64,000 nucleotides of DNA from Stylophora pistillata (lineage: Eukaryota). Made by a program: the position numbers and the translations under genes. The notes beneath the pieces were generated by a model. The model searched no databases. It was not told the DNA's origin and saw nothing but the letters and a program-made list of their open reading frames with translations. Shown in pieces: positions 4,101 through 64,000 of the stretch; position 1 is the first letter of the stretch, and every line of letters begins with the position of its first letter. The DNA lies in contig NW_019218098.1 of NCBI RefSeq assembly GCF_002571385.2, positions 286,137 through 350,136 of the forward strand, read 5' to 3'.

Positions 4101-7100
4101 ATTTTGAAGCCTTGTAGGGTTTTTGTGCTCCTCTTGGGGAGAGGAATTTCCATTCCATTTAAGTCTAAACCAATTTCTTTTGCTTGCATCTGAAAGAAAA
4201 TACACGACAAAGAAAAGTACTCTTATGCTAAGTTGCACTTAATTGTAACTTAATCTTTAGCAAAGGGACGTTGCTCTTAGAAGACTTCAGATGAACGAGT
4301 TTAAGGATCTACCTGGTTTGGTATTCGTCTCGGCTTTCTTGGCCTCAGCGGGAAGGAATTTACCAAAGTTGTCCTACCTCAGTAAGGTAACATCATTGAG
4401 ATGATTAACATGAGTGCCTCTAGGTTTGGACTGAGTATGGAAATCGTTTCTTTTTAGTCTTCAGACAATTAATCTCGATGATCTTCAAGAAACGGATATT
4501 CTTAATGAGATCTTTGCAATACCAAAAGTAGTAACGTTGAAGTTCATGGGACGCCTAAAGTTAAGGTGAAATCGGTGTCAGTTCAGGCTTCGAAACTTTA
4601 CTGACTACATATACCACCAACTGAACTAGAAAGCTACATGTTAGCTAATCTTGTGGTCCTTGTCTAAGAATCTTATGAACAAAAGAAACTTCATGAGTTT
4701 ATTATGTCACATTCATTTACAGAGGTATCTGCCACAGATTTTTGGAAACATGAGTGATACTATACTTAACAAAGCCAGTAATTTGAACGCAAATGATGAA
4801 AGATATATTTCTCAAGGAGTATATAACATGTTGTTTGGGACAGTGGAACTGCTTATGGTTTCTGCAGAGGAAGCTAAAGTAACTAAGGAAAGTGGTCTCT
4901 CTGCCGCTAACCGTAGTCAGGTAGGTCAAAGTCCATCAGGTCATTTTTTCCAGAAAGAAGCAGCGCTGTTGTTGTACCGTAAACGAGAACTGAAAGTTAC
5001 ATCAGAAGCAATGTAATGAACTGTAGGGTTTCTTACCACACAGCCCTTCTTTTTATTACCATTTCCATCGCCACATCCATTACGACTCAATAAAATCTAG
5101 TCCTAGGTGGTATACTGTATGAGACTTCTCAACTTTGCTCGACTAGGAAATGGAAATCGTCCTGAAATCAATCCACATCATCAGGACCTTGCTCAGGACT
5201 CTGACGACAAGATTAGCGGTTTCGCAGTCTCCGAGAAGTATGCAGGTGATGGGTTTGGATTTCACGGCGGGTCGCGAAACCTCCTGTGGACTTGAGTCAA
5301 AAACTTTGAACGGGTCAGAAGGCGAGGGTTTTGTACTTCCACCCAACATGAGGAAGGCATTTGGGGAAATAGACTTAGATTCAATTGACTTTCAGGTGAG
5401 TTTTATAATGAGCTTGCGCTTTATTTCCCTCGCTTTCCAACAAATATCTTTTGTCTCCTAACTTTCGATTCCACTTTTCTTTTGTTCTCTTCTCACTCTC
5501 GTCTACCATTACGTTTCTTCTCCCTTATAAATTCCTCTATGCCTCTTTTCTGGTCACCTGTTTCATTTGAAATTTATATCTTTCTCTAACAGCTTATTCA
5601 TACCAAGTTCAATCCATATCTGTGGCATCAAACTCACCAAGAAGTGAGGTCAGAAATACTGAGCCTCGAGTTTAGTGACGATAACGGAAATGTATTCCCT
5701 GTTGGAGGAGATGACGTCGACATCGATATCGACATCAAAATACCCCTCCTTTCCGGCAACGCGTCTTCAAATAATTTTTTCATCAGACCACTCACCATGC
5801 GATACCATATCGTCGCGCTTGATGACATTTCTGATTCCATCATCCTCGAAGTTAAACCAATCAACAGAAGTCTAATGATGGTGGTGTATGTTAAACATGG
5901 AGGGCGACCAACTTTGAACGACTTTGATTTTTACGCTGTTATTCCTGATTACTCTTCCTGCCGTTATGATGCTCTCAATGGTAATTTGGTCCTTAAGTGT
6001 GTCACAAGTCCATACGAAGTCATGTCTACTAGAGATTTTAACCAGACGGGTCTATACTATGTCGGCGTGTTGTATATTGAAAAGAGTCAGCTAAATCACA
6101 CCCGAACTAGACGGTCATGCTTCGGAAGAAAGAGACAGAGAAGGGACTGTGTTGAGCCAAAGCCTCCTCCAGTGAGAGGGATTGAGTACAATAGAACATT
6201 AACCTATAATCCCGCTACTGATCAGAACTACAGTGTCAAAGTTCAGAAATACAGCTGTTATTATTTCTCTTTGACACAAAACAGGTGGAGTAAGGACGGC
6301 TGCAAGGTTAGAATGAGAATAAATAGAGCACTAAAACACCTCTGTACAGTCTAACAACATCCCGGTTATACGGTCACAACTTACAAAACATTTTAAGCAA
6401 TATTCACATTACTTGAATAAATTTCACAACATTAAATTTATAGTGAACACTCAGTCATGCCGATCTATTCCATGATGAATGCATACTTTAAGATACGACA
6501 CTACAACCTCTTCTACATTTAATCATCTATAATTTAGCCTTATTCTTATCCAGTCCAGTTAAGACCAATATAAGACCTTCAATCAGCGACAAAGTGGTTG
6601 ACAAATTGACCTTTTCAACCCCTTTTTACTTCTATTTATCACTTTTGCCCTCTTTAAGTTAACCTAATCGACCCCTCCCCCCCCTCCCCCCCGAAACAGT
6701 GTTGTATCGTGACTCCATGAACTTTTAGCCAACAGTGAATAGGAGAGGGATGGGGCTGTTAATGATTTATAGTGAGGTAGAAACAAGAATGTTATTCTTC
6801 ACATAAAAAGAACTCTCCCGACATGATGTGTCAACCAATTTGTACGCTGATTTTCGATATCATGGCATTTTGCTCCATGGGCTAGCTTCATCAATAGTGA
6901 TTGGACTAGATTGCTTTATGAATTAGCCATAACGGCACAGCTCTTAGAAGTGGATAAATTATAACACCGTGAGGTAATATGAAAATAGAATACTGAGCAT
7001 GATGCAGGAAAAATTTCTAAAATGTTTGAATTTCCAGGCTACTCGCTAGCCAAAGCTTTCCAAAATAATGAAGAGCATTGGACCCTGCCAAACCTACAAT

Positions 7101-10100
7101 TCGACACATTTAGTGGGGAGAACTAGGGTAATTTTAAAAATGTTTTTGTTTCTCTGGACATAAAACATAGAACGTTATTTCTTGTCCTATTTAGGTCGGT
7201 GATGAGACGAACGAACAACTACTTCACTGTAGGTGTAACCACCTTACTGCGTTCGCCGGTGGTTTCCTCATTGCACCAAATCCAATTGATTTCGACAAAG
7301 TCTTTGTAGAGTTTACTAGACTCGGTGAAACAGGAAATTATGTGGTGCTTTCAACTGTCTGCGCCATTTTTGGTGTGTATTTGTTGGTGATTATTTGGGC
7401 GAGAAAAGCAGATATGTTAGATGAAAGAAAGGTACGTTGACTATTTGCATTTATAAAATGACTCGAATGCTACAAACGCCCTGATTGCTGAGAATCCTAC
7501 CATTTAATGCCCTGGTAGACTCATAGGAAAAATTTTAACATACTTTGTTTCGTCTTAAATCTATATATTTAAAAAAACAATAGACCGGACTTTGTACTGG
7601 TTTACCAACGTAATAACCCACTTGGGGACGTTGAGAAAACACTAGAAAAGTTTAAAAAATTACTCACCTCTGGCCCGTAATTTACAAACTTTCTAGTGTT
7701 CTTCCAACATCCCGCGCGGAATGAGTTATTTCCCGGTTAACCGATGGAAACTGCGGATTATTGCTATAACGTGTTGATACTGACAACTTTCCTTCAAATT
7801 CGATGGACCTTGCACATTGGAAGTTGTGTAAGAATATTGGAAATCACAATAATTTGTTTTACAATTTTAATAACTAATTATTTTATAGATTTCTCTGGAA
7901 TTGCTTAGAGATACGTAATTGACCGTCGTCTAATAGCATAATGATAAATTTTTCTTGGCAGTTGGGTCCAACTGTGAATATAAAATCCAACGCGAACAGC
8001 GCACACAAATATGATGTGACCATAATTACCGGTGTGTGGAGACAAGCTGGCACATCCTCAAGCGTGTTTGCTAAATTCTACGGAACTGAAAATTGTACTA
8101 AGGATGTCAACTTGACTGGCAACGGTCCACCAGGAAGAAAACTGTTTGCAAGAGGCAGTATCGATAGGTTCGTCCTTCACTGTGACAGTCCGCTCGGAAG
8201 TGTGTTTAAAGTTGAAATGTGGCATGATAACAGTGGAAAAAATTCTTCTTGGTTCCTGGATCAAGTTCACATCGTTGAAAGAAGTACAGGAGAAAAGTGG
8301 GATTTCTTTCATCATAATTGGCTGGCACTTCACAAAGGTAATGGAACAACTACTGTGACTCTCATGTCCCATGATAATGGTCAGCACAGCCCAGGGTTTA
8401 AAAGTATGTTTCACTCATTGGCTGCAGCAGAGCTGGCCGATTATCACATCTGGGCTTCCGTCGTTGCCAGACCACCACGCAATTCCTTCACACGCGTTCA
8501 GCGTGCCTCTTGTTGCCTTTCTTTTCTGTATTTGGCAATGGTATGTAACGCTATGTTCTATCTTGTGGTTGGTGGTTCCGAGGAGTTGATCCAGATAGGA
8601 CCACTGCAAATGTCCCTCCGCCAGCTAGTTATTGGAATTGAAAGTACGTTGATAGTTACGCCAGTGAGTGTTCTTATAACTGCATTATTCCGCTTCAGGA
8701 AGGCAAAAACGAACGGAGAGAGTGAAGAAAGCGACTCAAATAACAATCCTTCTGAGATGTCCTATGTCAAAAACAAAAAGAAACAATTTTTACTTCCTCA
8801 TACCTTCGTATATCCCGCCTGGTTTCTCTGTATCGCAACAGCAGCCACGGCTGCCTCGTTTACAGTTTTTTACAGCCTTCAATGGGGTAAAGAAATTGCT
8901 GATCAATGGCTAGCTTCGGTCGTGGTATCCTGTGTTGAAGATGTTTTTATCTGGCAGCCTAGTAAAGTCCTGGTATTAGCTTTGTTACTGATTCTAATTT
9001 TTCAAAGACCTAAGCCGCCCGATGAAACTGGAAATTGCGATGGTACATCATTTTCAGAGGAGATACAGGAGCAACGTGCCTATGAATTACGGAAGGCGAA
9101 ATTTTTTAGATTTGCACGTCAATTTATGGCTTTTTTGGCCTTCTATCTCCTTTTGATGATGGTAGCTTATGGAGACAAGGGTCATCATAGGTACCTGATG
9201 ACAAAAGCCACCCGTGACGGTTTCGCTTATTTTTACAAGGTTTGTGAAAACTGCATTTTAACAGTAACGAATTTTCGGATACTTTCTTTGCAATCACCTT
9301 CCACCAGGCTGCATCAGAAAAGAAATTATTTGGTGATGCTTCAACCCATTGATAGCACCGATGACAGTCCAAACTGAGTTTATCGACAAAAACTGACATA
9401 TCAAATTCTGGAAGTTTTTCTATGCCAGTGAAATAAATTCGCGGGCTAACGTTTTTTCCGCTAAAAAATTGAAAATTTTAAGTTTACGGAAACTGTCGCT
9501 TTTCCTCCTTCTTTACTTGTACTTTTGATATGCTGTGAGAGCTGGATGAAAGAAAAAAAATGATAAACATCAACAATTTAATGCAATTCGTAATACATCA
9601 AATGCCACTGGTTATTTTTGTTGTTTGTAGGTAAATACGGGCGACAAAATGTGGGATTACATGTTGGGGAAGTTCATCCATGACTCTTACGCCGGTGATT
9701 GGTACAATGGCCAGTTTGAGCCGACGACAGAGTACATTGGCAACAAAGCTTCTATGCTCATTGGAATGCCTCGCCTTCGACAGTTAAGGATAGAAGAAGG
9801 TATCAGTCGATGTCATCTTTTTTTTTTTTTTCATGTTTGTAAAGAGAAGAATAGAACTATTTTTACACGAGGACTCTGTTAAAACGATCGAATAGTATAA
9901 CCTTGCCAAATAAACACAATGGCTGTAAGTTGTAAAGCGAGAAGAAGAGAAAAATATTTCCCTGGTACATTTATTTAGGACTAAGATAGAGCTCATTTAT
10001 ATTTGATTTATTTTGCTAAACGTCTTCCACTATGTTCATCTCCTGCAGTTGGTAACTAATATTTGGTCTCTAATTGATTTATTTTAACAAATAGAATCAT

Positions 10101-11335
10101 GCAGCGTTGTGAAAGAGCTTAGGGAGATGATTTACAAATGCTACGACTTTTACTCGATGTCAGAGGAGGATACAACTCGTCTTTATCTTCCTCACTGGGT
10201 TCATTTGTCAGATTCTCAGCTTAGCTGGAACAATCTATCACAACTTTGTCCCAGACCTTGGCGTTATTCAACCGCAGAGGAGCTCAATAATTTTCCATCG
10301 TGGGCTCAACATCACATATATGGCGGTGGGGGATATGTTCTCGATCTGGGATACGATAAACCGACTGCCATCCGTATGATGGAGGCTGTGAAAGAGAAGG
10401 ACTGGATTGATAGAAGAACAAGGGCGATTCTCCTTGAATTTCAAGTCTTAAACTTAAACACTAATTTAATGAGCATTATCACTTACCATTATGAAGTTCT
10501 TCCTCTCGGATTTGGGCTTACTTACGAAAGGATCGACACCATTAAATTGTTTAATTTTGAAAGTATATCCTATAGCTTTTACCTAATGTGCCAGCTGATA
10601 TTTATTTTTATGGTACTAGTGTATATCACGATACTTTTAATCAGACTTTGTCGCGAAGGGGGCGCATTTTTTAAGCGTATATCGAACTGGATAGATGTTG
10701 GTCAAATTGTGAGTGCCTTGCTTGCAGTTGTGTTTTACGTTATGAAAGCTAAGTTTATGCATGACAGTATTCAAGAAGTGCAAAGGAATCCATTTGTGAC
10801 TGTAAGCTTTCAGTTTGCAATTTTTTGGACTGAGATGGAGAATACTGCTCTTTCATTTGCTTTATTCATTGCTACTTTCAAAATTCTTCACTTCATTCGA
10901 CTTAATCCACAGGTTCAAATACTAGCGTGGACTTTGGCCATTGCGAAACATGACATTTACTCAATCAGCGTTCTCTTCGGAATACTCTTTATAGCACACG
11001 GGCATTTTGCTTACATAGTTTTTGGTAGTTCAGTGTTTTCATTTTCATCGTTCATTCGCGCATTCGCTTCTGAATTTGAACTAGCACTTGGGAACACCTT
11101 TCACGTTGTCCAACTCGATGATGTCAATAGAATCTTTGGTAATCTCTTCACAGCCAGTTTTATGGTCACCCTTGCAATTCTTCTGGTCAATATTTTTGTT
11201 TCTATTCTTGATATCAATTTACACGATGTAAAGGACGACGAAGAGAAGCTTGAAGAAGCATATGGTATGGCAGAATTTATCAAAACGCTTTTATTTGGCC
11301 TGGATCGTAAGAAAGAGGAAGATACTGGGTTGTAA
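448..11335 (+). CDS. Gene A: polycystin-1-like (PKD1L/REJ-type) 11-TM protein, 5'-incomplete; cbEGF x2 - REJ - GAIN/GPS - TM1 - PLAT - TOP - cation channel
   Basis: 13 GT-AG exons with consistent phases: 448-576, 1078-1188, 1432-2209, 2557-3127, 3670-3867, 4261-4386, 4723-4920, 5147-5395, 5593-6306, 7195-7431, 7962-9239, 9631-9799, 10095-11335 (5999 nt, about 2000 codons, no internal stop). Motifs: DIDEC/DKDEC EGF, GSESFDP (REJ), WSKDGC...CRCNHLTAF (GPS), WHDNSG..SWFLD (PLAT), FTRVQR, PRLRQLR, YGGGGY, WIDRRTRA, LLVNIFVSIL (S6). Confidence 0.93.
6581..6852. mobile_element. MITE-like element with imperfect terminal inverted repeats
   Basis: Left end AATCAGCGACAAAGTGGTTGACA; right end TGTCAACCAATTTGTACGCTGATT is its near reverse complement; non-coding interior. 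Confidence 0.65.
7195..7431 (+). CDS. Gene A GPS autoproteolysis site plus TM1 exon
   Basis: VGDETNEQLLHCRCNHL/TAFAGGFLIAPNPIDF...VVLSTVCAIFGVYLLVIIWARKAD; not in the ORF track; ttag/gtac splice sites. Confidence 0.92.
7570..7770. mobile_element. Palindromic MITE-like element
   Basis: Imperfect inverted arms (gttgagaaaacactagaaaagttt / aaactttctagtgttcttccaac; aacaatagaccg / cggattattgct) in gene A intron. Confidence 0.55.
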
Positions 11336-12419: not shown

Positions 12420-13906
12420 TTAGGGATCAAGCTCCGATCCTTCGTATAACGCATATTGAAAATGATCTGCCATCGAGAAAAGAAGATTCATAAAGTCATT
12501 TTCCTCCTTTAGAAGATCAGCTTCCATGTTTTCTGTTCGTTTAGTGAGAACAGGCAGTCTTTTCTCCACGTTTTCCATTCGTTCCTCTGTGCTCAGGATA
12601 ATACTTTCAGAATTCAAACAGAATGGCTCTGCTTCAGAAAGGCACATGTTTACGAAGGTCGTCTCATCACAAAACAACCTAAATTCCGTCCGATTACTCC
12701 CTTCATGGAACATTTCCTTTACACATTCGCCAATGAAGCGGGCCATTTCAAGCTCTTCTGCACTTTCCTCGGCGTTTGTTTTGGCGTCGCCGTAAGACTC
12801 ATTAAGAACAGAAACTAACATATTCATTAGGAATATAGTTGTAGATAAACAAAACAAAAATGCAAACGTCGGACCAATAAAGGGTTTGTCGCTCCGCAGA
12901 GCTTGTAATGGGACCGCCTTTCCTAGCAGGAATTCGAATTGCGACATGACAGCATTGAGGTAACTAGAATACTCAAGGACTATACCACCAAATAAATGCA
13001 TACCTGTAACGACAAATGCATGAAACACGATGAGAAAGAAGAACACGTACGAGAGTTGATAGCCTACGGATTGCCGGAAAGATGAAAACAAGTAAATCAC
13101 GTGTGGGTTAAAACGAATAAGATTCAGAAGCTTGATTGTCACCATAAAAACAGCGACAGCGATAGATGCATTTTCTAGGTTAAGCCAATCCAAGGCTGTG
13201 TGAAAATTCACGATTTCATAAGGATTGGCTTGAATAGCTTTGATAGTTTTCAAAACAGTTTTAGCTCTGATCATATAAAATACTACAGAGGCCACAGAGG
13301 AAATGATCATGAAAAAGTCGACTACGTTCCAAACAGACTTGAAGAACCCAAAACGTTGTCTATAAAGGTGAAATAACATAACTATGAAGTAAAAGAGGAC
13401 CATTGCCATAAACAGAAACTGGCCAATTAGGAAAAACATCAGAGCTCCCGACTCAGTGCTGTACAACTCGAGTGTTTCAATTTTCCTCGAAGGGTAGGCT
13501 GCACCAGTAGCTTTGGCCTCGTAAAAGTATGTAGCGATGCTAATCAGGTTTGTATTGACATTGAAAATAGCAAACTCTAGAATTACAGCCCGAGTTTGGC
13601 GATCGAGCCATCCGTGCCCAATAGTTTCGTCTAGGACACCCTGTGCAGTACTTTCGTCATAACCCATGACAGCTACATAACCACCTCCTTCATATGAATT
13701 GTATGCCGCCTGGATGGGATCGTTGCGAAGTTTTGCTGCTGATTGGTATCGCCAAGGTTTCGGGCACAATTGGAGGGCATTTGGCCACGACGTATTCGGG
13801 GGAAGGGGCTTCCAGCCCGGAAGACTTAGATAGGTAGTGTCCTCACTGTCTGAGGAATAGTCGTAGTAGCAAGATGAGAACATTTTAGAAAGGGATCTGC
13901 AGGTAT
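12420..13906 (-). CDS. Gene B last exon: TOP domain, polycystin cation-channel TMs, Cys motif and coiled-coil tail
   Basis: Open ORF with YEGGGY, WLDRQTRAV, SQFEFLLG pore, FLMNMLVSVLNESY, TEERMENVEKRL. Confidence 0.92.
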
Positions 13907-16900
13907 CTTGAGGGAAAAATACAAAGAAACAAAAAAATGCATCTTTTAAAATCTTTAACTTCTATAAAAGATAATGAAGTGAAACAGAGAAACAAACCAA
14001 TAGTACAAAAGCCATTTTATAAAAAGTATGTATAGTATAGTACTAAGCCGGATTATTAAGAATCTCGAATGACTGTGATATTATAGTTGCTGCTGATGAA
14101 TTAGAATGTATGCTTAACTGACGCTGTGCCAGTACTGCTCCCTCAGAGATTAATACTCTTTGTTCTAGAAGACTGATAACTAAATTTATTGTCATTGTGA
14201 AAAAGCAATTGATTGTTAGGGTGAATCTTTAAGCACATTAGAAACCAAGGAATAGTGTGGCCATTAGAGGTTATAATTACTACCATGGACATGCAGATAC
14301 TCTTATTTGAATTGGTTCACGACATTGTGAACCTCTGATAGTCCTTCAGTTCAAAATATGGAAAAAGATTAAAAACCAATGTTCTTTTATGACTTAGTTA
14401 ATCATTTCGTTGACCATTTCCAATACGATGGAGGATAGATTTTATACACATATCTACTAATTCAAGAATTGCATTTGTCTCCTCACTTTACAACATGAGG
14501 CTTCTTCGGATTATTGTGAACGTAAAAATGATCAATTTCAACTGAGTTTACCTTTTTTAATTCTGAGCTGTCGCAACCGGGGCATACCCACCAGCATCGA
14601 CATCTTGTTTGAGATGTACACGTAATTTTTTTCTTTAAGTCCGTTATACCACGCCTGATTATAAATGTTTGATAGGAATTCACTCCTTAACCATGTTTCA
14701 AATCTGTGTGAATCATATACCTAAAATAAAAAGATGGCTATGAATGGGGTTGACATTGTTGTCTGCTAAGGTTGATATCTTTGTCAAATAACAAATAAAC
14801 ACAAACAAGAACAAAACAAAAGGCAGATCCTACAACACTATTCTTTGTTACACCTGATTTAAATAGAGGATTTTTTTGTTAAATCGAATTATGAATTTAA
14901 TGAAATGTGTTCGGATTCATTCACGGAACGAAGCAGCAACCATAATTGGCCTTGCTCTTAATATATGGCCTCGTACTTCAGTTAATAGTAGCGCCCAGCT
15001 GGTACGTGAGAGGCACAGATTGGAGTTCTGTCGAAGCCAGGTCATTTGAAGGCCTCTATTTTGCAATTTCTCTACTCGCAGCTCACCTGCGGTAATTAAT
15101 ACTTTATTTCCAATTTTAATCTTTCTTTAAAAGGTAATTTTTTTCAAGTGTGGGAAGGCTTTTGCAGGTGTTATGTGACTGACTTTGATTCCCACTTTTC
15201 TGTCCAAAAATCCACAAATCTAAAACTCTTCAACAGCATTAGGATTGTCTTGCAAAAGGATAAAAACAACAAAAATACTTTTTACTTGTAAACTAGAAAG
15301 TGTGTTTTGCCAAAAAAGAGTCTTACCACATTGAATTTAGAGAACTGATTCCTCGTCTCCGTTGTCATCAGAAAACGATTTCCATTTTTGTTTCCATAAG
15401 ATACGATAGCCAGAAGAAACATAAATATCAGATGAAGAATAATCTCTCTTGTCATGCTTGTTAACTGAGCTTCTCTTTTTGATCTCTCCCTCATCTTTTC
15501 CCGCTGATGTCTCTTAAAGCGCTGTTTGGGATCATCCCTCAAAAAATCAATTTCAATTGCATGTGGATCGATTGAAATTTCCTCTTTTTCTTCTTCAGCG
15601 CATTGGCCTTTATTCTTTCTGGTCAGTAGAAAGGAAATAACGATGACCGCTATCATAACTTTCGTGGGCTGCACAACAAAAATATCTTGTCCATTAGAAA
15701 TCAAGATTGAAGCAAGCCACTGCTCAGAGGTTTCCTTTCCCCACATTAAACTGTAAAACAGAGTAAACGTTGCCGCTGCCATGGTGGTACAGAAGCAGAG
15801 AAACCAGCCTAGATAGACAAAGAAATGAGGAAGCATACAGCCGGTATCCGTTATTTCATCCAAAAGTCGATGGGCCTCGTCTGTCACTTGGTATTTTTCG
15901 TTCCTTTTCTGCCTTGGTTTGCTAGACTTTAACAGGAAGACAATAATTATGTTTATGGGAGCAATAATTATGCCACTTTGTGCTCCGATGACTATCTGTC
16001 TCCAAGAAAACTAAAATGGGCCAACCTGTATAGCACCGTCGGATTCACCACCACTGTTATAGAACATGGCATTAGCTATCATTGCGCTAAACAGAACTGA
16101 AAGGCAACAAGAAGCTCTTTGCACACGTGTGAAGGTACTGCTACATGCTTTTCCAAACACCGACATCCACAGGTGACTGTCGACAATTTTTCTGGCAAAG
16201 CGCGAACAAACCTGAGCCGAGAAGGCGGAGTAAGTTGTGCTGTCCATAGTAACCTCTATCTGACCGTCGTCTTTCTCCAAAGCAAGCCATCTATTAATGG
16301 GGAATACCCACCTTTCCTCTGTCTGCCGGTCTTTGATGACCACAGTCTCTACAAACCAGGACGGATTATCTCCCGAATTATCGTGATCCAGAGTAATTTC
16401 TTTTATTGTACCAATGGATTCAGCCATCGCTAGAACGAAGCCGTTGATACTACCTCGTTCGAAAAACTCGCTCGTGTCCCCTTCCTCTCGCAATGGAATT
16501 TGACTCCGCTCGTTATTCTCGCCCTTGATATTAATGGTTATATTTGCTGTTGTCGCTGAATGTTTCCAAACGCCAGTGCTTATAACCATATCGTAGTAAT
16601 ATGTTCCTTCCTTAACAACTGATATCAATTTAGGAGGACAAATCTGAAAAGAATGATTGATTCTGGTGTGAAAATAATCCAAAATACTCATCTGAGGGTT
16701 GACATCTATCGGTAAGAAAGTATAAAGTTTGACTGCTGTTTCATTAGTAAGTTAAAAATAAAACTGTGTCAATTTATAAAGCAATGTATGAAGGAATAAA
16801 GATATCAAGTTAGGCGTACTAGCAGCCATGAACATACCTTGTCTTCATCTCTCTTGTCGGCTCTCCTTGCAAAGATTAAGACGACGAAGTACAGAAGGAA

Positions 16901-18369
16901 ACAACAAAGAATTGTCACAAGTACTGAGATATTGCCACTTTCAGCAAGGTTTAAGAACTCAGTAAATACTTTGTCAAAGTCAATTGGGTTTGGCGCTTGG
17001 ATGAAGTTTCCGCCAAAGGATGTCAAATGATTGCAGAGGCATACAAGATGCGTGGCGTTTGAATCTTGGCCGACCTATGGAGATAAATGTCATTCAAAAT
17101 TTCAGCTACATTCAACGAAACGAATTTTGGGAAATCGGAAAGTGATATTGAATATGGCTAAGTTTTGACAGAAGTTTAAAAAGCCGCCTCTGTCTAGGAG
17201 TGGCTTCTCGACTGTGAAATCCCGCAATTTCGTTATCAAAAATTTTTTTTGCAATTGATATATTTTTAATACAGAGTTAATAGGTTTCCTCGTTGTGGAA
17301 AAACAAGAATGATGCTTGAAGGACTTCATAATGCACATATTTCTCAGGGGTTAAAAAACGTTGCAATTATTTATTTTACCCTGCAACCTTCCGTAGCCCA
17401 CTTTTCTGTTTTCTCTGACCAGTACAGACAGCTTGATTGGGTGATGGTTAAAGTGTAGTTAACGTCTGTTTTTGGGTCATATTGCGGAAACATAGTTTTA
17501 AGGAATCCTGTCGGTGGTGGATCTTTAACGCCAACGCATGACCGTCTTTCGCGACGATGATCGAAGCATGATCTTCTTTGCCTTGAATGTGGACTTTCAT
17601 TCTCAGAGCCTTTGAACAACAGGCCCACGTAAAGGAAACCCGGCTTAGAAGGCGTCACTGTGACTGACCCATCTCTGGTAAAGCAGGTTGTATTAACAAC
17701 TGTTTGGTTGTTACATGAAGACTTGAACGCAAACGTAAATTTGTGGTCGAAGTCGTTCATCGTTGGTCGTTGTCCAAATTTAATCCGCAGTTCAATTTGT
17801 ATTCCTGCTATGGCTAAATCCAACTTCAGAGAGACAGGGACGTGGGCTAAGTCTGCGTAGTAGCTTCGAACTGATATCTCGTTAGGCTTAAGGAAATAAT
17901 GTTGTGTCCCGTTGCTGGAGTTTTTGGGTGGGTTAGAAATCGGAATGACGATCTGAATGTCGTTATCAAGATTTGACACATTTATCTTTTCCGCGCTGGT
18001 ACTTTTAAGCTCGAGACTTGTGACGCTTGATTTGATTTTCTTGCTACTATTGTCCCAGGTAAAAGGGTTAAAATCAACAGCCTGCATCTGAAATAGAACA
18101 CACTATCTTAGACTCTGACTCTTCAACTCTAACACCTAACTCTTGTGATGACTTCATCTAAGGTTGTTGAGACGTCAGTTGCGATTACTGGGACTTCATA
18201 CATGCAAACAGTCGAATACATGATAAGAAGTTATATGATAGGTTAAGTTGTTTGAAAGTATGGCAAATGAAATTACGGTATTCCTGGGATCCTTTTTAGT
18301 CAATTAAATAAGATTCAGTAAAGGAATCATGAATTTTTTATTGTCGATGAAATTATGTCCTCAAAAAAA

Positions 18370-37113: not shown

Positions 37114-40100
37114 CTAACGACGAGAAGGATTAGTTATCAGATAAAATAGTTCCATAAAGTCATTTTCCTCCTTTAAATGATCACTTTCAAAGTTTTCTGT
37201 ACGTCGAGAAAGCAAAAGCAGCCTTTTCTCCACTTTTAGCATTCGTTCCTCAGTACACTGGATAATAGTTTCAGAATTCAAACAGAAAGGCTCTGCATCA
37301 GAAAGACACATGTTGGAGAATGTCGTCTCATCACAAAACAACTTAAACTCAGTCCGATTACTTCCCTTATCGAAAATGTCCGTTAAACGCTCCTCGATAA
37401 AACGTGCCATTTCAAGCTCTTTTGCGCATTCTTCTGCGTTTGTTTTAGCATCACCGTATGATTCGTTGAGTACAGAAACAAGCATATTCATGAGAAACAC
37501 AGTTGTGGATATACAAAACAAAAATGCAAACGTCGGACCAATAAAGGGTTTGTCGCTTCGAAGAGCTTGCATTGGGACTGCTTTTCCCAACACAAATTCG
37601 AATTGTGACATAACTGCGTTGAGGTAACTAGAATACTCTAATACTACACAACCGAAAAACTGCATACCTGTGACGACAAATGCATAAAACACGATCAGAA
37701 AGAAGAACACGTACGATAGTTGATAGCCTATAGATTGCCGAAAAGATGAAAACAAGTATATTACGTGTGGATTAAAACGAATTAAATTTAGGAGCTTGAT
37801 CGTCACCATAAAAACAGCAACGGCAATAGATGCATTTTCTAAGTTAAGCCAATCCAAGGCTGTGTGAAAATGTGCGATTTCATAAGGATTGGCTTGAATA
37901 GCCTTGATAGTGTTTAAAACACTTTTAGCTCTGATCATGTAGAATGCTACAGAAGCTACAGAGAAAGTTATCATGAAGAAATCGACCATGTTCCAAACAG
38001 ACTTAAAGAATCCTAGGCGTTGTTGATATAGGTGAACTAACATAACTATGAAGTAAAAGAACACCATTGCCATGAACAGAAACTGGCAAATTAGGAAAAA
38101 CACCAGAGCTCCCGACTCAGTGCTGTACAACTCGAGTGTCTCAATTCTTCTTGAAGTATAGGCTGCACCAGTAGCTATGGCCTCGTAAAAATATGTGGCA
38201 ATACTGATCAAGTTTGTATTGACATTGAAAACAGCAAACTCTAGAATTACAGCTCGAGTTTGGCGATCGAACCATCCCTGGCCAATAGTTTCGTCGAGGA
38301 CACCTTTTGCGGTGCTTTCGTCATAGCCCATGACTGCCGCATAACCACCTCCTTCATATGAATTGTACGTAGCCTGGATGGGATTAATACGAAGTTCTGC
38401 TGCTGATTGGTATCGCCAAGGATTAGGGCAACTTTGGAGAGCATTTGGCCACGATGCGTTGAGTGGGAGAGGTATCCATCCTGGAAGGCTTAGTAAAGTC
38501 GTGTCCTCGTTGTCTGAAGAATAGTGGTAATAGCAGTTGGAAATGATTTTAGAGAGCGATCTGCAGGAGCCTTCATTGAAAATGTAGAGGAAAAAGAGGA
38601 AAAACAGTTTGTGACTTTTAGTTGCATAACTGATAACAAGGAGGAACTAAGAAGTTACTACCTAGAACAACACGTCTATAAGATTCCTCATTGTATCGGT
38701 TTGAAGATTGTGGTTCCTAAATTACTATCGAAGCTTAATTAAATTCACTGTTTTAGCCAGAAGACCTCAATTTCTGTTTTTCCTTCTTTAGAGATGTAAA
38801 TAACTGGTCGTTTTCATTGGAGTTATTGGTGTGATAGGCTGCCAACCATCATGATTTCGATGGAAGGGAAAATGTTTCATGGGTACGCGTAATTACGGCT
38901 ATTCAAACTATTTAAGGTCCATTAAGTAGCCTCAATTAGAAATATGAAAGAAAAGGAGCGCTGGTCAATAAAATATTAATGATATTTTTCTCTTATGAAA
39001 GCTTCTTGGAGTATAAGACCACTGATTTATAAGTTTCACTTTTTTATCCAGTTTCAAGCAAAGCCTCCTGCAAAAAGATGTATCCCTATAAAATGATCGA
39101 TGTAAATTGTAGTTTACTTTTTTTGATTCTGAGCTGTCGCAACCAAGGCATCCCCACCAAGATCGACATCTTGTTCTCGATGAACACGTTGTTTTTCTCT
39201 TCGTCTCCATTGTACCAGGCCTGGTTATAAATGTTTAATATGAATTCATTCTTTAACCACGCCTCTAATCGATGTGCATCGTTTACCGAGAGGGAAAAAG
39301 AAGAACTGAGAGAGAGCGTATGCATTAAGTTCGTTGCACCATTCATAAACAAGTTCGGCGATGAACATGGTTATAAAAAAAAAACAAGTAAATAAAAAGT
39401 AATGAAATGACTGACCACTGCAACAAAGTGCAAGGAAAACATAAACCAGTAGGCCATCTTAAATCCAAAACTCGTGATAACATCGGAAAAATTTGAGCAG
39501 TTAAAAGTTCAGTGCAATCGAGAGCAAAGGCTGATTTAAAATCTCTAGTTCTACCAGCTATTTTTCTTTGAGAGGTCATTTTTAAACTATATCAAAAAAA
39601 CTGTTCAAGTGTAGGTTTTAAAATAGCTCGAATGTATTACTTTGTCTGGTGCTGGGATGTGATTGACGTTGGTTACCAAAAAACTTTGTGTTAAGCATCC
39701 CGAGTCTGTAATTTTGCAATTATGGTGTTATGCATATGCCTAGCAAATCCTTTAAACATAAACAAGTCTAACTACTAAGAAGGAGTCTTTTAGCAGACAG
39801 GATAATCTTACCAGGTTAAACTTAGTAAATCGATTTCCTATCTCTGCTGTCATCAGAAAACGATTTCCATTATTGTTTCCATAGGATACGATAGCCAGAA
39901 GAAACATGAATATTAAATGAAGAATGATGTCTCTTGTCATGCGTGTTAAAGCAGCCTCCCTTTGGGATCTCTCCCTCATCTTTTCCCGCTGATATCGCTT
40001 AAAGTACTGTTTGGGATCATCACTCAAAATATCTATCTCGATTGCAGATGAATCGATTCCAATTTCTTTCTCTTTTTCTTCTCCTTTTTCACATTTTCCT

Positions 40101-41586: not shown

Positions 41587-44500
41587 GTTTGGGCAGCAGA
41601 ACTGTTTGATTGGATGCATTTAACGAGATGAACACACCTTGTCTTCATCTCCCTTGTCGGCTCTCCTTGCAAAGACCAAGACAACGAAGTACGAAAGGAA
41701 ACAACAAGAAATTGTTACAAGTACTGAGATATTGCCACTCTCAGCAAGATTTAAAAACTCGTTAAAGACTTTGTCGAAGTCAATTGGATTTGGTGCCTGA
41801 ATGAAGCTTCCACCAAACGATGTCAAATGATTGCAGAGGCATACAAGATGCGTGGTGTTTGAATCTGGGCTTACCTTTCAAAACATGAATAGATAAATAG
41901 ATCAATAACAAATGTCAATTTTAGCCATAAAAACAATAGATAATATAGAAATCGAGAAATGCGATATTTTAAGAAGAATAGCCGATTGGTGGTTTTAGCA
42001 TTATATCCGCCGCTTTATCACTAAATCTGTACTTTCGAAATCAGTATTTTTCGCATATAATTTTTAGGATGAATAAGTCATTGCTTTCCTTAACCTAAGA
42101 AACAGCTTGTAATGGTAAATTTTTACCTTGCAACCTTCCGTAGTCCACTCTTCTGTTTCCTCTGACCAATGCAAACAACTTGACTGGGTGATAGTTAAAG
42201 TGTAGTTAATGTCTGTGTTTGGGTCATACTTTGGAACTGCAACTTTGAGAACTCCTTTGGGCGGAGGATCCTTGACCCCAACACAGGACCGTCTTTCGCG
42301 ACGCTGACCGAAACACGATCGTCGTTGCCTAGAATGTTGACTTTCACTCTCAGAGGGTTTAAACAATAAACCTACGTAGAGGGAGGCTGGCTTAGATGGC
42401 ATCACTGTAACTGATCCACCTCTGATAAAGCAAGTTGAATTGACATCTGTTTGGTTGTCACATGTAAAGTTAGACACTAATGTAACGTTGTGGTCAAAGT
42501 CTTCCACAGTTGGCCTTCCTCCAAACTTTATAAAGAGTTTGATTTGAATTCCTGCTTTAGCCACCTCCATATTAAGAGATACAGGAACATTAGCGAGTTC
42601 TGCGTAATAACTACGGACTGACATACGGTTAGGCTTAAGGAAATAATGTTCTGTCCCGTTTCTGGAGTTCTGAGGTGGATTGGAAATCGGAATGACGATC
42701 TCGATGTCATTATCGAGATTTGAGATATTAATTTTTTCCTCGCTGTTACCTTTAAGCTCGAGACTAATGACTTTTGATTTGATTTTCTTGCTGCTATTGC
42801 TCCAGGTAAAAGGATTAAAATCAATAGCCTGCATCTGAAAGAAAACGAACTATATGTGTTTCTTGATACTGAGGTAAGTGAAATTACAGGAGTTTTTCTT
42901 CACTTCTTCTGTCAATCAAACCTATAAATCTATTCAGCTTGACAGAGAAATTATGAATTTTCCATGCCATTTGTTAATATGAGCTAAAATAAAATATTAT
43001 ATGAACAAGCGGGTTACCCCACCTAGGCAAGATACCTCACTCATCTGGGGTCCCCCACCTCCATGTAGACAGGCCCTAAATGAATACACCCTTTTTTCTG
43101 GATTCTGTATTATAGGCATGCAATACTCAGTAGTTAGTCAAGTGAAAAGCAAGCAAAATGCCAGAAAAATTAAAGCAAGGATTTCTTTATAACATCCTTC
43201 CCCATCATTAGATTGGACAGAATCTGAAAGCTGGATTGAGAATAGCAATCTTACTTTTGCATTTATGTCTACACTGCCGAAATTTCCAAGATTGCTTGGG
43301 AGCTTGAATTTGCTTGGTCCATCTCCCATGCTGAGTCCCTTTGCATCGTTAGCTGTGACCTTTTTCACAAATATTACCAACTTTGGAGTTTGAAGGACCA
43401 GATCTTCTGATGGAACTAAGCGGCCAAAAAGTGCATCGCACATATTGCTCAGTTTTTCGAAGGCCTCTTTAACTATCTAAAAAGAGGATCAAATAATGTC
43501 AGTTGTTGAGAAAATAACGTAGTTATTCTTATAAATTAAGATATTTTTTGGTCTCAATTTATTTTGGTAACTACCGTAACATAGAATGCGGTTAAATGTT
43601 AGCAGCTTGTTAGAAATTTAATCCAGAAGGGGAATATACGCAGGAAGGTTCATATTTCTGGTAACTGTGCGTGTGATTTTTACCTCTGGAGATCGCGGAG
43701 ATGCTATGGAGTCTGTGTCGCCTTGACTCGAGCCTACACCAGACTTCAGAACATTCGTAAGACAGCCTGTAACACTCGTCGCTGTTTGTTCCAACACTGG
43801 TGTGAAAGGCTCCTCTGGATCGTTTAGGGTAGAGATCATGATATTTGCCGTATTATCGATCAATTGCATTGTTAATTCCTTGGAAAAAATAGTACTGGCA
43901 CATCATTTATCAGAATCATTAGAATGCGAAGATTTGGCAGATCAAATACTCTTGAAAATCCGAAATTTACCATTGTCGTAGCCTTCTTTTTAGGTACAAG
44001 TAAAATGTTTTAATCGTTTCCGGTCAGATACCTTCGCGAGGAACAGGGAGCCCAGCAATATTTACATCACTTGCAAGACGAGTCCAGATGAGTACTGAGC
44101 TGGCACGGACTCCAACCGTATTGGAACCGAACCATTTCAGGTTTATTTTCCTCCTTTATTTTTAATCTTATTTTGTTGAAGAGGAATTGTTTGACTGTTA
44201 TTGTTATTAAGTAAAAAACCGATTTGACATTTATATATGCGATCCAAACAGAATAGAAGAGCAAAAGAAAAAATAAAATCAATACGGCGTACCGCGCTGT
44301 CAGTGTTGCTGTCACTGTCACCGTCACTACAGCTGTCGCATTTTAGTTCAGCCTTCGTCCCCATGGCCAAGCTTACCACTGACATCACCAAGCGAGACAT
44401 TTCAAGATTATCTGGTGTTATAGCTGTAAATTTGTTAATCAATGTGTCGATAATCTAATAACAAAGAGAAATGACATGCTTCGAATGAACGATCGCACAG

Positions 44501-57051: not shown

Positions 57052-60000
57052 CTTGTCACTTCGTCAACCCAAACCGAGCCGAAGCATTTTTGTTACTTGG
57101 GCATTGTTTACCTAATCCCACCGTGGTTAGATTTCATTGAAGGAAAACCAACATTAATTTTTTATCAGTTTCGCATTGGCCATGAAACCGCACATTCTAG
57201 AAGTACTAAGCAATCGACGAAGGGAAATGAAGCAAGTTTCCTATCAACTGCAGCGATGCTTTTTGCACATGGATATTTCAGTCTTCGTTCAAAGGATGTG
57301 TTGTTACGTACAAAGGAATGAAAAAGTATAATGTATTTGGTTGGAATATGGGCGATTGGAAAATACAAAGTATTTAGATTGAAGGTAGCAGGAAATTTAA
57401 TTGTTTTCTTTTGACTTAATTGGTGTTATCAAACAAATCACCTCCTTAAATCGTCTCTTTCTTTACCTCTTCATGGAGTTTTGATTTTTGTATTCATTAA
57501 AATAGCCTGTTTCAGGCCATTGGTCATGGAAAACAAGTGAAATAGCAGGCGAGCGACTCTTAGCGACTTCCCTAAAAAACACACTTTCGTACATTCACTT
57601 TTTGATTGTCTCTATTGACAGGATGTTAATGAATATGATCGCACATATCAGAGTACTTAAGTATCCTTAGGCTTTCCATCGGTTCCACAAGCTTTTCCAT
57701 ATTTATCTCTGAGTTTCGACGGATTTTTTCTTGGAACCGTAAAATTAAGTATTAAAATAGTCCACAGCTGGCATACATATTGTATTGTGTTAGTGTACGA
57801 GTTTGTAAATGTGAACGATAACCTACAATTGTGATGTTATTGTGCTAAAAAACCAAGGCTAAAAACGTGATCTCTACAATGGTTATTAAATTATTAATAA
57901 CAAGGCACGGTCAGTTTGGATATTCTGACAAAAATGAAAGCAGGGGTTCATTAAGACAGTTTTCAATCGACACAGTTTCCCACAAACAATTTATTCGTTA
58001 TGACTAAAACGACCTCATGTATCAAAACAGGACTTCCTTAGAAAAAGAATATTTAATTTTGATCCAAAATCTGACTTTGTGTATCCATGAATCTAAATTC
58101 CCGCAAAGCTTGATTGAGTCTTTAACAAATTGACATGTTGGTGGTTATTGAAATGGACTGGATGAGAAGATGCAAATAACCCAATACACACTTTTTTGTA
58201 CCCTATCCTTCGATACCGCTCAATATCGCTAAAAAAATCGTTCCAACGTTGGTTTCTAAATCTTCCCAAGGGTATCAATGGACGAATCTTCTTTTAAGCG
58301 CTCGATGAAGGAGAGCGCTTACTAAGTGTGTCATTTACGAGGCCCTTCTTAAAGTTTCTCTGAGCTTATTAACTCCTAGTACATTCGATTACACGCCAGT
58401 GTCACAATATCTTTGACACGCGCGTTGATCGATTTCACGGATTGTCCCCATCTCTTGTTATGTTTAGTTGCCCTGCTGGCTCCTCGTTTGAAGTTTTGGA
58501 CTTTTAAAGTGCCGTGTTTTCAAAATGAAAGAAAAAAAATAGAAAAAAGTAGATTATGTAAGAAGAAATCACAGGGTGAAATACTTTTTGTAAATGAATG
58601 GCCACACCAGACAATTAGAATTGCCGAAAATTACTTGGTTACAACAGATGTGAAAACACCAAAAGCTTTGTAAGGATAGTTAATTAAGAAAGAGGAAAGC
58701 CAAAGATGCGTTGCTATTCAAAGCTATACCATAACTTGCAAGTCGTAAGTGGACCAAGGAGTGATTCAAACGGCGGCGGGTAAATGTGAAAAAATCCGTG
58801 CAAATCCCAGCTTGGGAGTTGCAATAATCGTATGCTATTTTTTAACCAAGGACAGGCTGGTGAAGCCTATCAGAGGTCCTATAAGATGGCATCGGAGTAA
58901 ATCGATTCTAGAAGACCTTCATCTCGAATATGCAATTGTGAGGATTTTAAAGAAGGCAAATGAAACTGCTGACGACAGGCACTGGAAAAAAAAAGTCGAG
59001 AAAATACGAAAATACCGACTGCGTTTGAACGATGTCTTAAGAAATCTGAACTTGTAGCCAGACTGCTAAACGGAAGTGGGACGGAAGGCTACTGCCGAAC
59101 AAATTTTATCTTTATCCATACAATGCCGATGAAGCGTAAACTAGTTATATTTTAATTATTTAAGGAGATACACTTAAACAATATCGTCAAAGGAAAATAT
59201 GAATAAGTTACGTATATCATGGAGTTGATTTGGGTTAGGTACTCACAAACCTTGCACTAGAGGTATCTTTATTTCTCTTCTTACAAAACAGCACAAGCGA
59301 AACTAAACCATTATCAGTACCTTACGAGAAAAACTCTCCATTCAGGGATCACCTCAGGATAGTCTATATGAGTATCAGCTAGAGGGATTTGCCATTGAAT
59401 AAAGTATTTCCATAAAGTCATTTTCCTCCTTAAAATGATCAGCTTCTATGTTTTCTGCTCGTCGATAAAGAACAAGTAGTTTCTTCTCCACTTTTTGCAT
59501 TCGTTCCTCTGTACACTGTATTATACTTTTAGAATTCAAACAGAAAGGCTCTGCTTCAGAAAGACACATGTTGGCGAACGTTGCCTCATCGCAAAACAAC
59601 TTTAACTCAGTCCGATTACTTCCATCATGGAACATTTCCTTCATTCGCTCTTCAATGAAATGTGCCATTTCAAGCTCTTGTGTATTTTCCTCGGGGTTCA
59701 TTTCGGCGTCAGCGTATGACTCATATAGTACAGAAACAAACATATTCATCAGAAATACTGTCGTAGATAGACAAAACAAAAATGCAAACGAGGGACCAAT
59801 AAAGGGTTTGTCGCTTCGAAGAGCTTGTTGTAATGTGACCGCTTTTCCTAACAAGAATACGAATTGTGACATGACAGCCCTGAGCTAACTAGAATACTCA
59901 AGGACTATACCACCAAATAACTGCATGCCTGTAACGATAAATGCATTAAACACGATCAGAAAGAACACGTACGAGAGTTGATAACCTATAGATTGCCGAA

Positions 60001-60454
60001 AATATGAAAACAAGTATAGTACGTTTGGATTAAAACGAATTAAATTTAGACGCTTGACTGTCACCATAAAAACAGCTACAGCAATAGACGCATTTTCTAC
60101 ATTGAGCCAATCCAAGGCTTTGTGAAAATGCACTATTTCGTAAGGATTGGCTTTAATGTCTTTGCTGGTGTTTAAAACGCTATTAGCTCTAATCATGTAA
60201 AATGCTACAGAGGCTACAGAGAAAATGATCATGAAGAATTCAACCACGTTCCAAACAGACTTAAAAAACCCTAAGCGTTGTCGATAAAGGTGAACTAACA
60301 TGACTATGAAGTAAAAGAGAACCATTTCCATGAACAGAAACTGGCCGACGAGGAAAAACACCAGAGCTCCCGACTCAGTGCTGTACAACTCGAGTGTCTC
60401 GATTCTTCTTGATGTGTACGCTGCACCAGTAGCTATGGCCTCGTAAAGGTACAG

Positions 60455-60815
60455 AATAATTTGGATATATCTACGAAGTTGAAATGGTAAATTGGCCACC
60501 GTAACGATTACAAAAGCTGACGTTTCGAGCGTTAGCCCTTCGTCGGAGCGAATAGAGGAGTTGTGGTTGTGTGCTTTTAAAGGCAGAAAATGGAGCTACG
60601 TTATTGGTGGGAACATGGCAACGAGAAAAACACGAATAAATTAGTGGAATGAAAAGCGTTCGTTGATCCCTGTGGGATTTAGACTGCCGGTCTGAAAGAT
60701 GAGCTTTTGTTCAAGAGCTTTACGGCTTTCCGTGCTACCTAAGTGCGAGGAAAGACCGCAGATTACCATATGTTGCTTAGAATGATTAGGTAATTATAAA
60801 TTAAAATGTCTAGGG
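60455..60815 (-). mobile_element. Penelope-like element 3' fragment: GIY-YIG endonuclease C-terminus, 3' UTR and hammerhead
   Basis: RHFNL..PNHSKQHMVICGL....ESRKALEQKLIFQTGSLNPTGINERFSFH* (stop at 60643-60641), typical of PLE endonuclease C-termini, followed by the shared element end. Confidence 0.88.
60516..60549 (-). ncRNA. Minimal type I hammerhead ribozyme motif (Penelope-like)
   Basis: Full 34-nt motif about 90 nt downstream of the endonuclease stop codon, same strand. Confidence 0.75.
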
Positions 60816-63800: not shown

Positions 63801-64000
63801 GACAGGTCCAAGTAAAATTGAGTCCATTGTGTATTCCAGGACCAATATCAGCATTGTAACTCAAGGATCCATCCACAATTATAATGTTTTTGGATCCCTA
63901 TGGTACACTGCTTCCTCCATCGATGATGGCTCGCACTGGCGCTGCTATAACCTCGATGAAACCATAATCAAAAGCATTTAATTTAATTTAATTTACTAGA

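What the first reader, a model, noticed from the sequence alone, without database searches (positions are those of the whole stretch)
6103..6150. Conserved tandem furin-site/cysteine cassette inside the GAIN domain of all three full genes
Seen: A has RTRR/SCFGRKRQRR/DC; B (17583-17536) has RQRR/SCFDHRRERR/SC; C (42330-42283) has RQRR/SCFGQRRERR/SC. Two RxRR sites 10 residues apart, each followed by x-Cys, then a Pro-rich stretch, about 70 aa before an intact HL/T GPS site. The cassette is conserved between A and B/C although flanking sequence is very divergent. Known: RxRR is the furin consensus; polycystin-1 family proteins are cleaved by GAIN autoproteolysis; a PKD1-related protein has been reported in coral skeletal matrix proteomes. 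Inference: a second, convertase-dependent processing layer that excises a 10-aa Cys peptide and leaves the ectodomain disulfide-tethered or sheddable, a possible redox or protease switch for receptor activation. In A, SCFG-RKR also resembles an amidation signal (speculative).
Basis: partly seen in the sequence, partly recalled or inferred. Interest (0 to 1): 0.7.

Follow-up and report, generated by a model that had tools for sequence, protein, structure and literature searches.

The report
Furin-cut disulfide staple in coral polycystins
A large coral and sea-anemone family of polycystin-1-like membrane receptors carries a conserved, predicted surface loop with two likely furin cut sites and two cysteines, and the second cysteine goes together with an extra cysteine on the channel's outer cap, so the cut outer part is likely re-attached to the channel by a disulfide staple.

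Summary
The motif is real in all three genes and is not special to this window. Of 144 related sequences that keep the second cysteine (Cys2), 91 have the full RxR/KR-x-C...RxR/KR-x-C cassette. It occurs in stony corals, anemones and an octocoral, and not in ten bilaterian relatives. It sits in a predicted exposed loop of a jelly-roll domain inserted in GAIN, 71 residues before the GPS cut. New here: Cys2 co-occurs with an otherwise unpaired cysteine (CPxxW) in the channel's TOP domain (38 both, 11 neither, 0 mismatched among 49 paralog pairs). That is only 1-2 evolutionary events, but both cysteines survive at least three separate losses of Cys1. Best reading: convertase cleavage plus a GAIN-to-TOP disulfide across the GPS break, with Cys1 as a temporary cap. 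No model showed this bond, and nothing here shows cleavage. Corrections: gene B has an in-frame stop; the amidation-like signal is not conserved (7 of 115); WSC-type polycystins, the type reported in coral skeleton, lack the cassette in this genome. The scan's earlier notes held nothing on it, and nine paper searches found no description.

The parts
5593..6306 (+). Gene A exon encoding most of GAIN subdomain B, the inserted jelly roll and the first half of the GPS motif
   Evidence: ORF; GT..AG joints on both sides in RNA contigs
5761..6252 (+). Predicted GOLD/PPC/SIDT-ectodomain-like beta-sandwich inserted in GAIN-B (model residues 58-221)
   Evidence: AF2 mean pLDDT 87; VIA-align best Z 8.2, rmsd 3.2, 106 aligned; Foldseek only weak, best E 0.004
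5959..6000 (+). Hairpin cysteine pair (C-x12-C) of the insert, likely a local disulfide and not a partner of the cassette cysteines
   Evidence: Cross-strand hairpin E124-129/E132-137 in the model; a pair persists in Cys1-less paralogs
6103..6114 (+). Gene A convertase-type site 1 (RTRR)
6115..6144 (+). Gene A decapeptide SCFGRKRQRR with Cys1 (6118-6120) and site 2 (RQRR, 6133-6144); would be excised by two cuts
   Evidence: unstructured, pLDDT 61-66
6145..6171 (+). Gene A predicted new N-terminus D-C-V-E-P-K-P-P-P with Cys2 (6148-6150), the most conserved part of the cassette
7240..7248 (+). Gene A GPS autoproteolysis site HL|T
   Evidence: exon joined to the cassette exon in an RNA contig
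10247..10249 (+). Gene A extra TOP-domain cysteine (Cys3, LCPRPW), likely partner of Cys2
17536..17583 (-). Gene B cassette RQRR/SCFDHRRERR/SC
17021..17029 (-). Gene B GPS HL|T
16011..16013 (-). Gene B in-frame TAG inside the PLAT/TM exon (pseudogene, null allele or assembly error)
13764..13766 (-). Gene B TOP Cys3 (LCPKPW)
42283..42330 (-). Gene C cassette RQRR/SCFGQRRERR/SC
41821..41829 (-). Gene C GPS HL|T
38428..38430 (-). Gene C TOP Cys3 (SCPNPW)

Best explanation
The cassette is a conserved, predicted surface loop of anthozoan polycystin-1-like receptors that is likely cut twice by a furin-type convertase, and its second cysteine likely forms a disulfide with an extra cysteine on the channel's TOP domain, which would staple a 71-residue GAIN piece to the channel across the GPS break. 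Shown: motif, position, conservation, splicing and co-occurrence of Cys2 with Cys3. Predicted: loop exposure and the jelly-roll insert. Inferred sequence of events: (1) GAIN is made about 660 residues before TOP, so Cys2 is first capped by Cys1 in a 10-11-residue loop; (2) in the Golgi a convertase cuts inside that loop (site 2) and before it (site 1); (3) Cys3 exchanges onto Cys2 and the decapeptide leaves. Lineages that lost Cys1 would form Cys2-Cys3 directly and mostly lost site 2. The result would be that the large REJ/EGF/discoidin ectodomain hangs on only by strand pairing at the furin break, while the GPS-proximal piece stays covalently on TOP. The shedding or pulling point would move from the GPS to the furin loop, and ectodomain load would be coupled to TOP. 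My odds: convertase cleavage about 0.75; Cys2-Cys3 bond about 0.55-0.6; the cap-and-exchange order about 0.3.
For: Convertase signature: in 68 complete 10-spaced cassettes, site 2 has P4 R 68, P2 K/R 68, P1 R 68, P1' S 56 and a free P3 (rows chosen for having both sites). One strict site in 8,324 aa outside the loop. The loop is unstructured between two strands of the insert and lies N-terminal of TM1, so it is lumenal. Cys2/Cys3: 38 both, 11 neither, 0 mismatched among 49 hand-paired G000 genes. L097 was predicted in a note before its GAIN exon was read: it kept Cys2 and lost both sites and Cys1. For L098-L106, TOP was read first (no Cys3) and GAIN afterwards (no cassette). 12 of 13 full-length anthozoan proteins from other species have both cysteines. 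Cys1 was lost at least 3 times on the tree while Cys2 and Cys3 stayed. No other conserved unpaired ectodomain cysteine tracks Cys1. Cys1 lies 10 or 11 residues before Cys2 in 105 of 118 rows even when site 1 drifts, and a strict site 2 is present in 111 of 118 rows with Cys1 but 6 of 26 without. In human PC1 the stalk acts on TOP (PMC11458180, abstract and passages), so TOP lies within reach of the GAIN end.
Against: The 38/0/0/11 table is phylogenetically only 1-2 events, so its Fisher p-value means little. The 1,196-residue AF2 model (43 sequences, pTM 0.54) left the whole loop at pLDDT below 50, and the tool gives no coordinates, so no contact with TOP was seen. P0185 (Montipora) has Cys2 changed to Gly while keeping Cys1 and Cys3; P0071 lost both loop cysteines, and its TOP is unknown. 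Lancelet P0153 has a spare TOP cysteine nearby and no loop cysteine. The fixed Cys1-Cys2 spacing fits a permanent Cys1-Cys2 bond equally well. One of the Cys1-less genes (L038/L079) has a stop in its exon and joins L083 on long branches. No proteomic or biochemical data exist here.
Confidence: 0.45

Rival explanations
1. Permanent furin loop, closest to the first reader's view: Cys1-Cys2 close a loop around site 2, the decapeptide stays disulfide-tethered after cutting, and Cys3 is free or binds another subunit or ligand.
For: Cys1-Cys2 spacing is 10-11 in 105 of 118 rows and Cys1 tracks site 2 (111 of 118 against 6 of 26). Shortened versions keep both cysteines (C-x4-C in L019, L035, L036, L041).
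Against: Cys2 and Cys3 both persist after at least 3 losses of Cys1. Cys3 appears only with the cassette. The one PKD2 gene found in G000 has no extra cysteine at that TOP position (L141).
Confidence: 0.25
2. Release switch, like gamma-retroviral Env: Cys2-Cys3 forms first and Cys1 is a resolving thiol. A trigger lets Cys1 attack the bond, freeing GAIN from TOP and exposing the stalk agonist; furin cutting primes or disables this.
For: The same odd three-cysteine set; precedent in SU-TM isomerisation (PMC9967133, passages); P0185 keeps Cys1 and Cys3.
Against: A double cut in the Golgi would remove Cys1 before any surface trigger. The spacing is C-x9/10-C, not CXXC. Cys1 is dispensable in several lineages.
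Confidence: 0.13
3. The loop is not cleaved: it is a polybasic patch that binds polyanions (glycosaminoglycans, acidic matrix proteins), and the cysteines only fix its shape.
For: No cleavage data. The loop is Arg/Lys-rich beyond the consensus positions. L097 and a few others lack both sites, so cleavage is not universal.
Against: Conservation is position-specific (P4, P2, P1, small P1'), not a matter of overall charge; P3 is mostly Q, E, S or G.
Confidence: 0.12
4. The decapeptide, or an amidated S-C-F tetrapeptide, is released as a signalling or inhibitory peptide, as with the ENaC GRIP tract.
For: Two sites flank a short peptide in a channel ectodomain, as in alpha-ENaC (PMC13488063, passages).
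Against: The middle residues vary widely, the length runs from about 5 to over 30 residues, and C-x-G-[KR][KR] occurs in only 7 of 115 rows.
Confidence: 0.05

Closest known systems
Polycystin-1 family (PKD1, PKD1L1-3, PKDREJ, sea-urchin REJ)
   Same: REJ, GAIN/GPS with HL|T, PLAT, TOP and polycystin channel; the long model matches PC1/PC2 structures at E about 1e-25.
   Different: NTF and CTF of PC1 are described as non-covalently held (PMC9672506, passages; 'furin' and 'convertase' do not occur in its main text). Here there are convertase-type sites inside GAIN and a likely covalent link across the GPS. Ten bilaterian homologues also have a loop at this place, but without the sites.
GPR126/ADGRG6 and Notch SEA-domain furin cleavage
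   Same: A furin cut in a loop between strands, upstream of a GAIN or juxtamembrane switch, leaving halves held by strand pairing until pulled (PMC6954182, passages).
   Different: One site in a separate SEA domain there; here two sites in a jelly roll inserted within GAIN, plus a cysteine triad.
Alpha-ENaC GRIP domain
   Same: Two furin sites flank a removable tract in an ion-channel ectodomain (PMC13488063, passages).
   Different: The ENaC tract is a 26-residue sequence-specific inhibitor; here the 10-residue tract conserves little beyond a cysteine and the cut sites.
Gamma-type retroviral Env SU-TM disulfide isomerisation
   Same: A cleaved two-chain protein joined by a labile disulfide with a spare nearby thiol (PMC9967133, passages).
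   Different: Unrelated proteins; CXXC there, C-x9/10-C with an internal cut site here. Analogy only.
Acropora skeletal PKD1-related protein (B8UU59) and Nematostella hair-cell polycystin-1
   Same: Anthozoan PKD1-like proteins with REJ, GPS, PLAT and channel (PMC3748352, PMC4890752; the Nematostella protein is described with REJ, PLAT, TOP and 11 TM in PMC8846589).
   Different: Both are WSC-type. In G000 the WSC-type genes lack cassette and Cys3. Their own GAIN loops could not be read (the supplement cell is cut), so this is inference from domain architecture.

Membership tests
Polycystin-1-like (PKD1 family) | REJ module upstream of GAIN | tested here: met
   PF02010 on exons of A and B; matching exons in C
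Polycystin-1-like (PKD1 family) | GPS motif with HL|T before TM1 | tested here: met
Polycystin-1-like (PKD1 family) | PLAT, TOP and six-TM polycystin channel | tested here: met
   PF01477, PF20519, PF08016; fold match to PC1/PC2 for paralog P0002; B is interrupted by a stop
Polycystin-1-like (PKD1 family) | Actual GPS autoproteolysis and assembly with PKD2 | not testable with these tools
   a PKD2-like gene exists in G000 (L141)
Furin/proprotein-convertase substrate | R-X-K/R-R consensus with small P1' | tested here: met
   consensus as cited in PMC6954182 and in the reference list of PMC4890752
Furin/proprotein-convertase substrate | Site in a flexible, exposed, lumenal loop | tested here: met
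   predicted only: no secondary structure, pLDDT 61-66 and below 50; N-terminal of TM1
Furin/proprotein-convertase substrate | Demonstrated cleavage | not testable with these tools
   needs expression or N-terminomics
SEA-domain cleavage module (GPR126, Notch, MUC1) | Ferredoxin-like SEA fold around the cut loop | tested here: inconclusive
   the best fold matches are jelly rolls (SIDT, GOLD, PPC; Z 7-8)
ENaC GRIP-type inhibitory tract | Two convertase sites flanking a short tract | tested here: met
   91 of 144 rows
ENaC GRIP-type inhibitory tract | Sequence-specific inhibitory peptide whose release activates the channel | not testable with these tools
   poor conservation of the tract's middle argues against it
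Gamma-Env-type disulfide isomerase switch | CXXC motif next to the inter-chain cysteine | tested here: not met
   spacing is 10-11 in 105 of 118 rows
WSC-type anthozoan PKD1 (skeletal and hair-cell type) | N-terminal WSC domain | tested here: not met
   no WSC match on the window's contig; 0 of 38 cassette genes have one within 25 kb upstream; B and C begin with F5/8C and EGF repeats

The most novel reading that the evidence does not exclude
A polycystin clade expanded to about 40 or more genes per coral genome uses a three-cysteine relay set off by furin. A removable 10-residue cap peptide is cut out so that the GAIN domain becomes covalently stapled to the TOP gate of the channel across its own autoproteolysis site: a built-in covalent tether for force or ligand transmission, not found in any description of a GAIN protein that I could search.
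Probability: 0.25. Interest if true: 0.8.

Novelty: new variant of a known kind. Interest (0 to 1): 0.58.

Why it matters
How the huge polycystin-1 ectodomain talks to the channel is an open question, and the GAIN region is absent from the solved structures that the PDB searches matched. A natural disulfide between a GAIN loop and a defined TOP residue would fix where GAIN sits on the channel, give a native cross-link for structure work, and make the 'shedding versus tethered pulling' models testable with point mutants. It also marks out the largest polycystin clade in this coral as processed differently from the WSC-type genes studied so far.

Tried and rejected
Complex prediction of GAIN (P0001 780-1140) with TOP (1592-1800): no answer, score 0.00, alignment not used; no evidence either way. 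PDB sequence search with the exon profile: nothing better than E 0.19. No GAIN or SEA structure was listed by the fold searches of the exon model, which holds only part of GAIN-B; the absence is not informative. The ESM Atlas held neither query. Pfam has no family for the exon (one SprB hit below its cut-off was ignored). A partner for Cys1 was sought elsewhere in the chain and in the PKD2 TOP: none found. A chance or low-complexity origin was rejected. Amidation was rejected as a general feature. The Fisher test was set aside as non-independent. The automatic motif counts had wrong anchors and were replaced. The GPS family search of G000 returned 109 matches, mostly away from the PKD1-like loci, and was not used. 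TOP exons of L021, L022 and L030 and GAIN exons of L107 and L109 were not recovered. Medusozoans, sponges and placozoans did not appear among named hits, so their state is unknown. Four RNA runs listed with next to none of the words are no evidence. Two look-ups in earlier scan notes gave nothing relevant.

Full report
1. Observation. The three cassettes translate as stated, and they are the only R-x-[RK]-R-x-C motifs in six frames of the window. The genes are polycystin-1-like: REJ, GPS, PLAT, TOP and channel domains. Gene A is spliced in RNA contigs: one contig of run X6 joins the cassette exon by GT..AG to the GPS exon and on to the PLAT exon, and all four runs laid (four studies) cover the cassette (contigs show presence, not level). 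The piece from site 2 to the GPS leucine is 71 aa. Gene B has an in-frame TAG at 16013-16011, and a fourth, decayed copy lies at about 59.4-64 kb. Several G000 paralogs are identical, over the channel segment, to proteins that NCBI labels Stylophora pistillata, so this is a stony coral.

2. How widespread. The exon has 51 matches in G000, a lower bound. A profile search found 862 relatives at E up to 0.001; I saw the best 150. In the final count, 224 sequences were examined and 144 had a Cys2 anchor (C-V-x-x-K-x-P-like). The other 80 are fragments that stop short, cassette-less relatives, two rows with Cys2 changed (P0071, P0185) and about eight true cassettes that the pattern missed (e.g. P0053, P0061, P0097). 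Two included rows (P0106, P0116) are doubtful; one N-gapped row and four proteins identical to G000 paralogs were left out. Of the 144, 118 have Cys1, 117 a strict site 2, 112 a strict site 1, 91 all three, and 136 at least one strict site. Rows are related and are not independent trials. Named carriers are Oculina, Montipora, Stylophora, Nematostella, Actinostola and the octocoral Dendronephthya. Named bilaterian relatives (lancelet, hemichordate, crinoid, bivalve, annelid, crustacean) have a loop at the same place without convertase sites.

3. Where it sits. AlphaFold2 on A's exon (125 sequences, mean pLDDT 87) gives a beta-sandwich at residues 58-221. The cassette (172-187) and the proline-rich run are unstructured at pLDDT 61-66, between the last two strands. 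Fold searches match this sandwich to SIDT1/2 ectodomain, GOLD and pre-peptidase C-terminal domains, best Z 8.2, rmsd 3.2, 106 residues. That is a middling score for a common fold and shows no function. Cutting this loop would leave the last strand in the sandwich, like SEA-domain cleavage (PMC6954182, passages). The conservation pattern is that of a convertase site and not of a basic patch: P4, P2 and P1 are fixed, P3 is free and P1' is mostly Ser; one strict site occurs in 8,324 aa outside the loop.

4. The third cysteine. Cassette proteins have three cysteines in TOP: the usual pair plus one in xCPxxW. I paired GAIN and TOP exons by contig position for 49 G000 genes: 38 have Cys2 and Cys3, 11 have neither, none has one alone. 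About eleven GAIN exons and several TOP exons had no recovered mate and were left out, as was a broken pair (L138/L110) in which Cys2 reads Arg and TOP is disrupted. L097 was a written prediction that held: it has Cys3 and keeps Cys2 though both sites and Cys1 are gone. In other species 12 of 13 full-length anthozoan proteins have both; P0185, a near copy of P0184, lost Cys2 only. Seven of eight readable bilaterian TOPs have no cysteine there; P0153 has one six residues upstream with no loop partner. A tree of the channel segment, which excludes both cysteines, needs 2 changes for the joint trait and does not exclude 1, so the table is one or two events. The informative part is that Cys1 was lost at least 3 times with Cys2 and Cys3 kept, leaving them as the spare pair. 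I found no conserved partner for Cys1 in the chain or in the TOP of the PKD2 gene found. Cys1 is instead tied to site 2: spacing to Cys2 is 10-11 in 105 of 118, and a strict site 2 is present in 111 of 118 with Cys1 against 6 of 26 without.

5. Results against. A 1,196-residue AF2 model of paralog P0002 holding GAIN-B and TOP left the loop at pLDDT below 50 (pTM 0.54, shallow alignment), and the tool gives no distances. It neither shows nor excludes the bond. P0185, P0071 and P0153 are exceptions or unknowns. No experiment shows cleavage.

6. Mechanism. Two covariations need explaining: Cys1 with site 2 at fixed spacing, and Cys2 with Cys3. A permanent Cys1-Cys2 bond explains only the first; a plain Cys2-Cys3 bond explains only the second. 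A cap-and-exchange order explains both (inference): Cys1 caps Cys2 while TOP, about 660 residues downstream, is still unmade; convertase cuts open and free the cap; Cys3 takes over. The receptor would then be cut at two levels, with the 71-aa piece covalently on TOP. In human PC1 the post-GPS stalk acts on TOP and raises calcium permeability (PMC11458180, abstract and passages; PMC12513491, abstract and outline), so a staple there would plausibly set how the ectodomain gates the channel. That thiol exchange can occur after the ER without an isomerase is my own knowledge and was not tested.

7. Known systems. It is a member of the PKD1 family. It works like a mix of SEA-type furin priming (PMC6954182), ENaC double-cut tract removal (PMC13488063) and Env-type disulfide exchange (PMC9967133), all seen as passages, but is a member of none. 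The coral skeletal PKD1-related protein (PMC3748352: passages and supplement table rows, sequence cell cut, file 1 unavailable; PMC4890752: passages and S6 Fig text, files 13-27 not searched) and the Nematostella touch receptor (PMC8846589: passages and section 14; PMC11811123: passages) are WSC-type. In G000, WSC lies upstream of 7 of 11 cassette-less genes and 0 of 38 cassette genes, so they probably belong to the other class; unseen supplement text could change this.

8. Novelty. Nine full-text searches listed no paper describing furin sites in a polycystin GAIN domain or a GAIN-TOP disulfide; two of them (polycystin + GAIN domain + furin; PKD1L + GPS + furin + cleavage) returned zero papers. 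PMC9672506 (passages) and the held part of PMC13197933 (passages) have no occurrence of 'furin'. The library lacks most subscription journals. Verdict: a real, selected, apparently undescribed processing module in an expanded anthozoan polycystin clade; a new variant of a known kind; the mechanism is inferred from sequence evolution; interest 0.58.

Noticed in passing
window 16011-16013 (-): In-frame TAG in gene B where gene C has Lys; B may be a pseudogene, a null allele or an assembly error.
   Followed up: partly
window 59375-64000 (-): Fourth, decayed copy of the B/C type with many stops and frameshifts; no GAIN cassette exon or TOP exon was matched.
   Followed up: partly
window 26817-27044 and 27850-28077 (-): Two F5/8C exon matches in gene B with identical scores, about 1 kb apart: a recent exon duplication or an assembly repeat.
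   Followed up: no
window 8335-8697 (+): One low-depth RNA contig (run X7) skips 361 bases with GT..AG ends inside gene A's PLAT/TM exon; possible out-of-frame alternative splice.
   Followed up: no
L084:3887-5500; P0011, P0013, P0014, P0178: The PKD-repeat subclade has a long insert in TOP, just before Cys3, with two or more further R-x-R/K-R sites, so its TOP may be convertase-processed as well.
   Followed up: partly
L043:1004-2506 (+): A paralog whose jelly-roll insert is expanded to about 500 aa with many cysteines and an Asp-rich run before RRRKGR; it keeps Cys2 and Cys3.
   Followed up: partly
P0186 (lobster, partial model), residue 2124: A lone loop cysteine in PCFEDPP resembles Cys2, without convertase sites; the TOP segment that would hold Cys3 seems missing from the model. 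Could mean an older or convergent tether.
   Followed up: partly
P0081: The cassette unit is triplicated (three R-x-R/K-R-S-C units), suggesting that the two sites arose by tandem duplication of one unit.
   Followed up: no
G000 C314, beyond the window: The cluster goes on: a further cassette gene (L012/L061) and a fragment (L120) lie downstream, and a Cys1-less paralog (L037) about 135 kb upstream.
   Followed up: partly
L141 (G000 C5): Only one PKD2-like gene was recognised, against 49 or more PKD1-like genes; the search gives lower bounds.
   Followed up: partly
window 35337-35815: Assembly gap of Ns between genes B and C.
   Followed up: no
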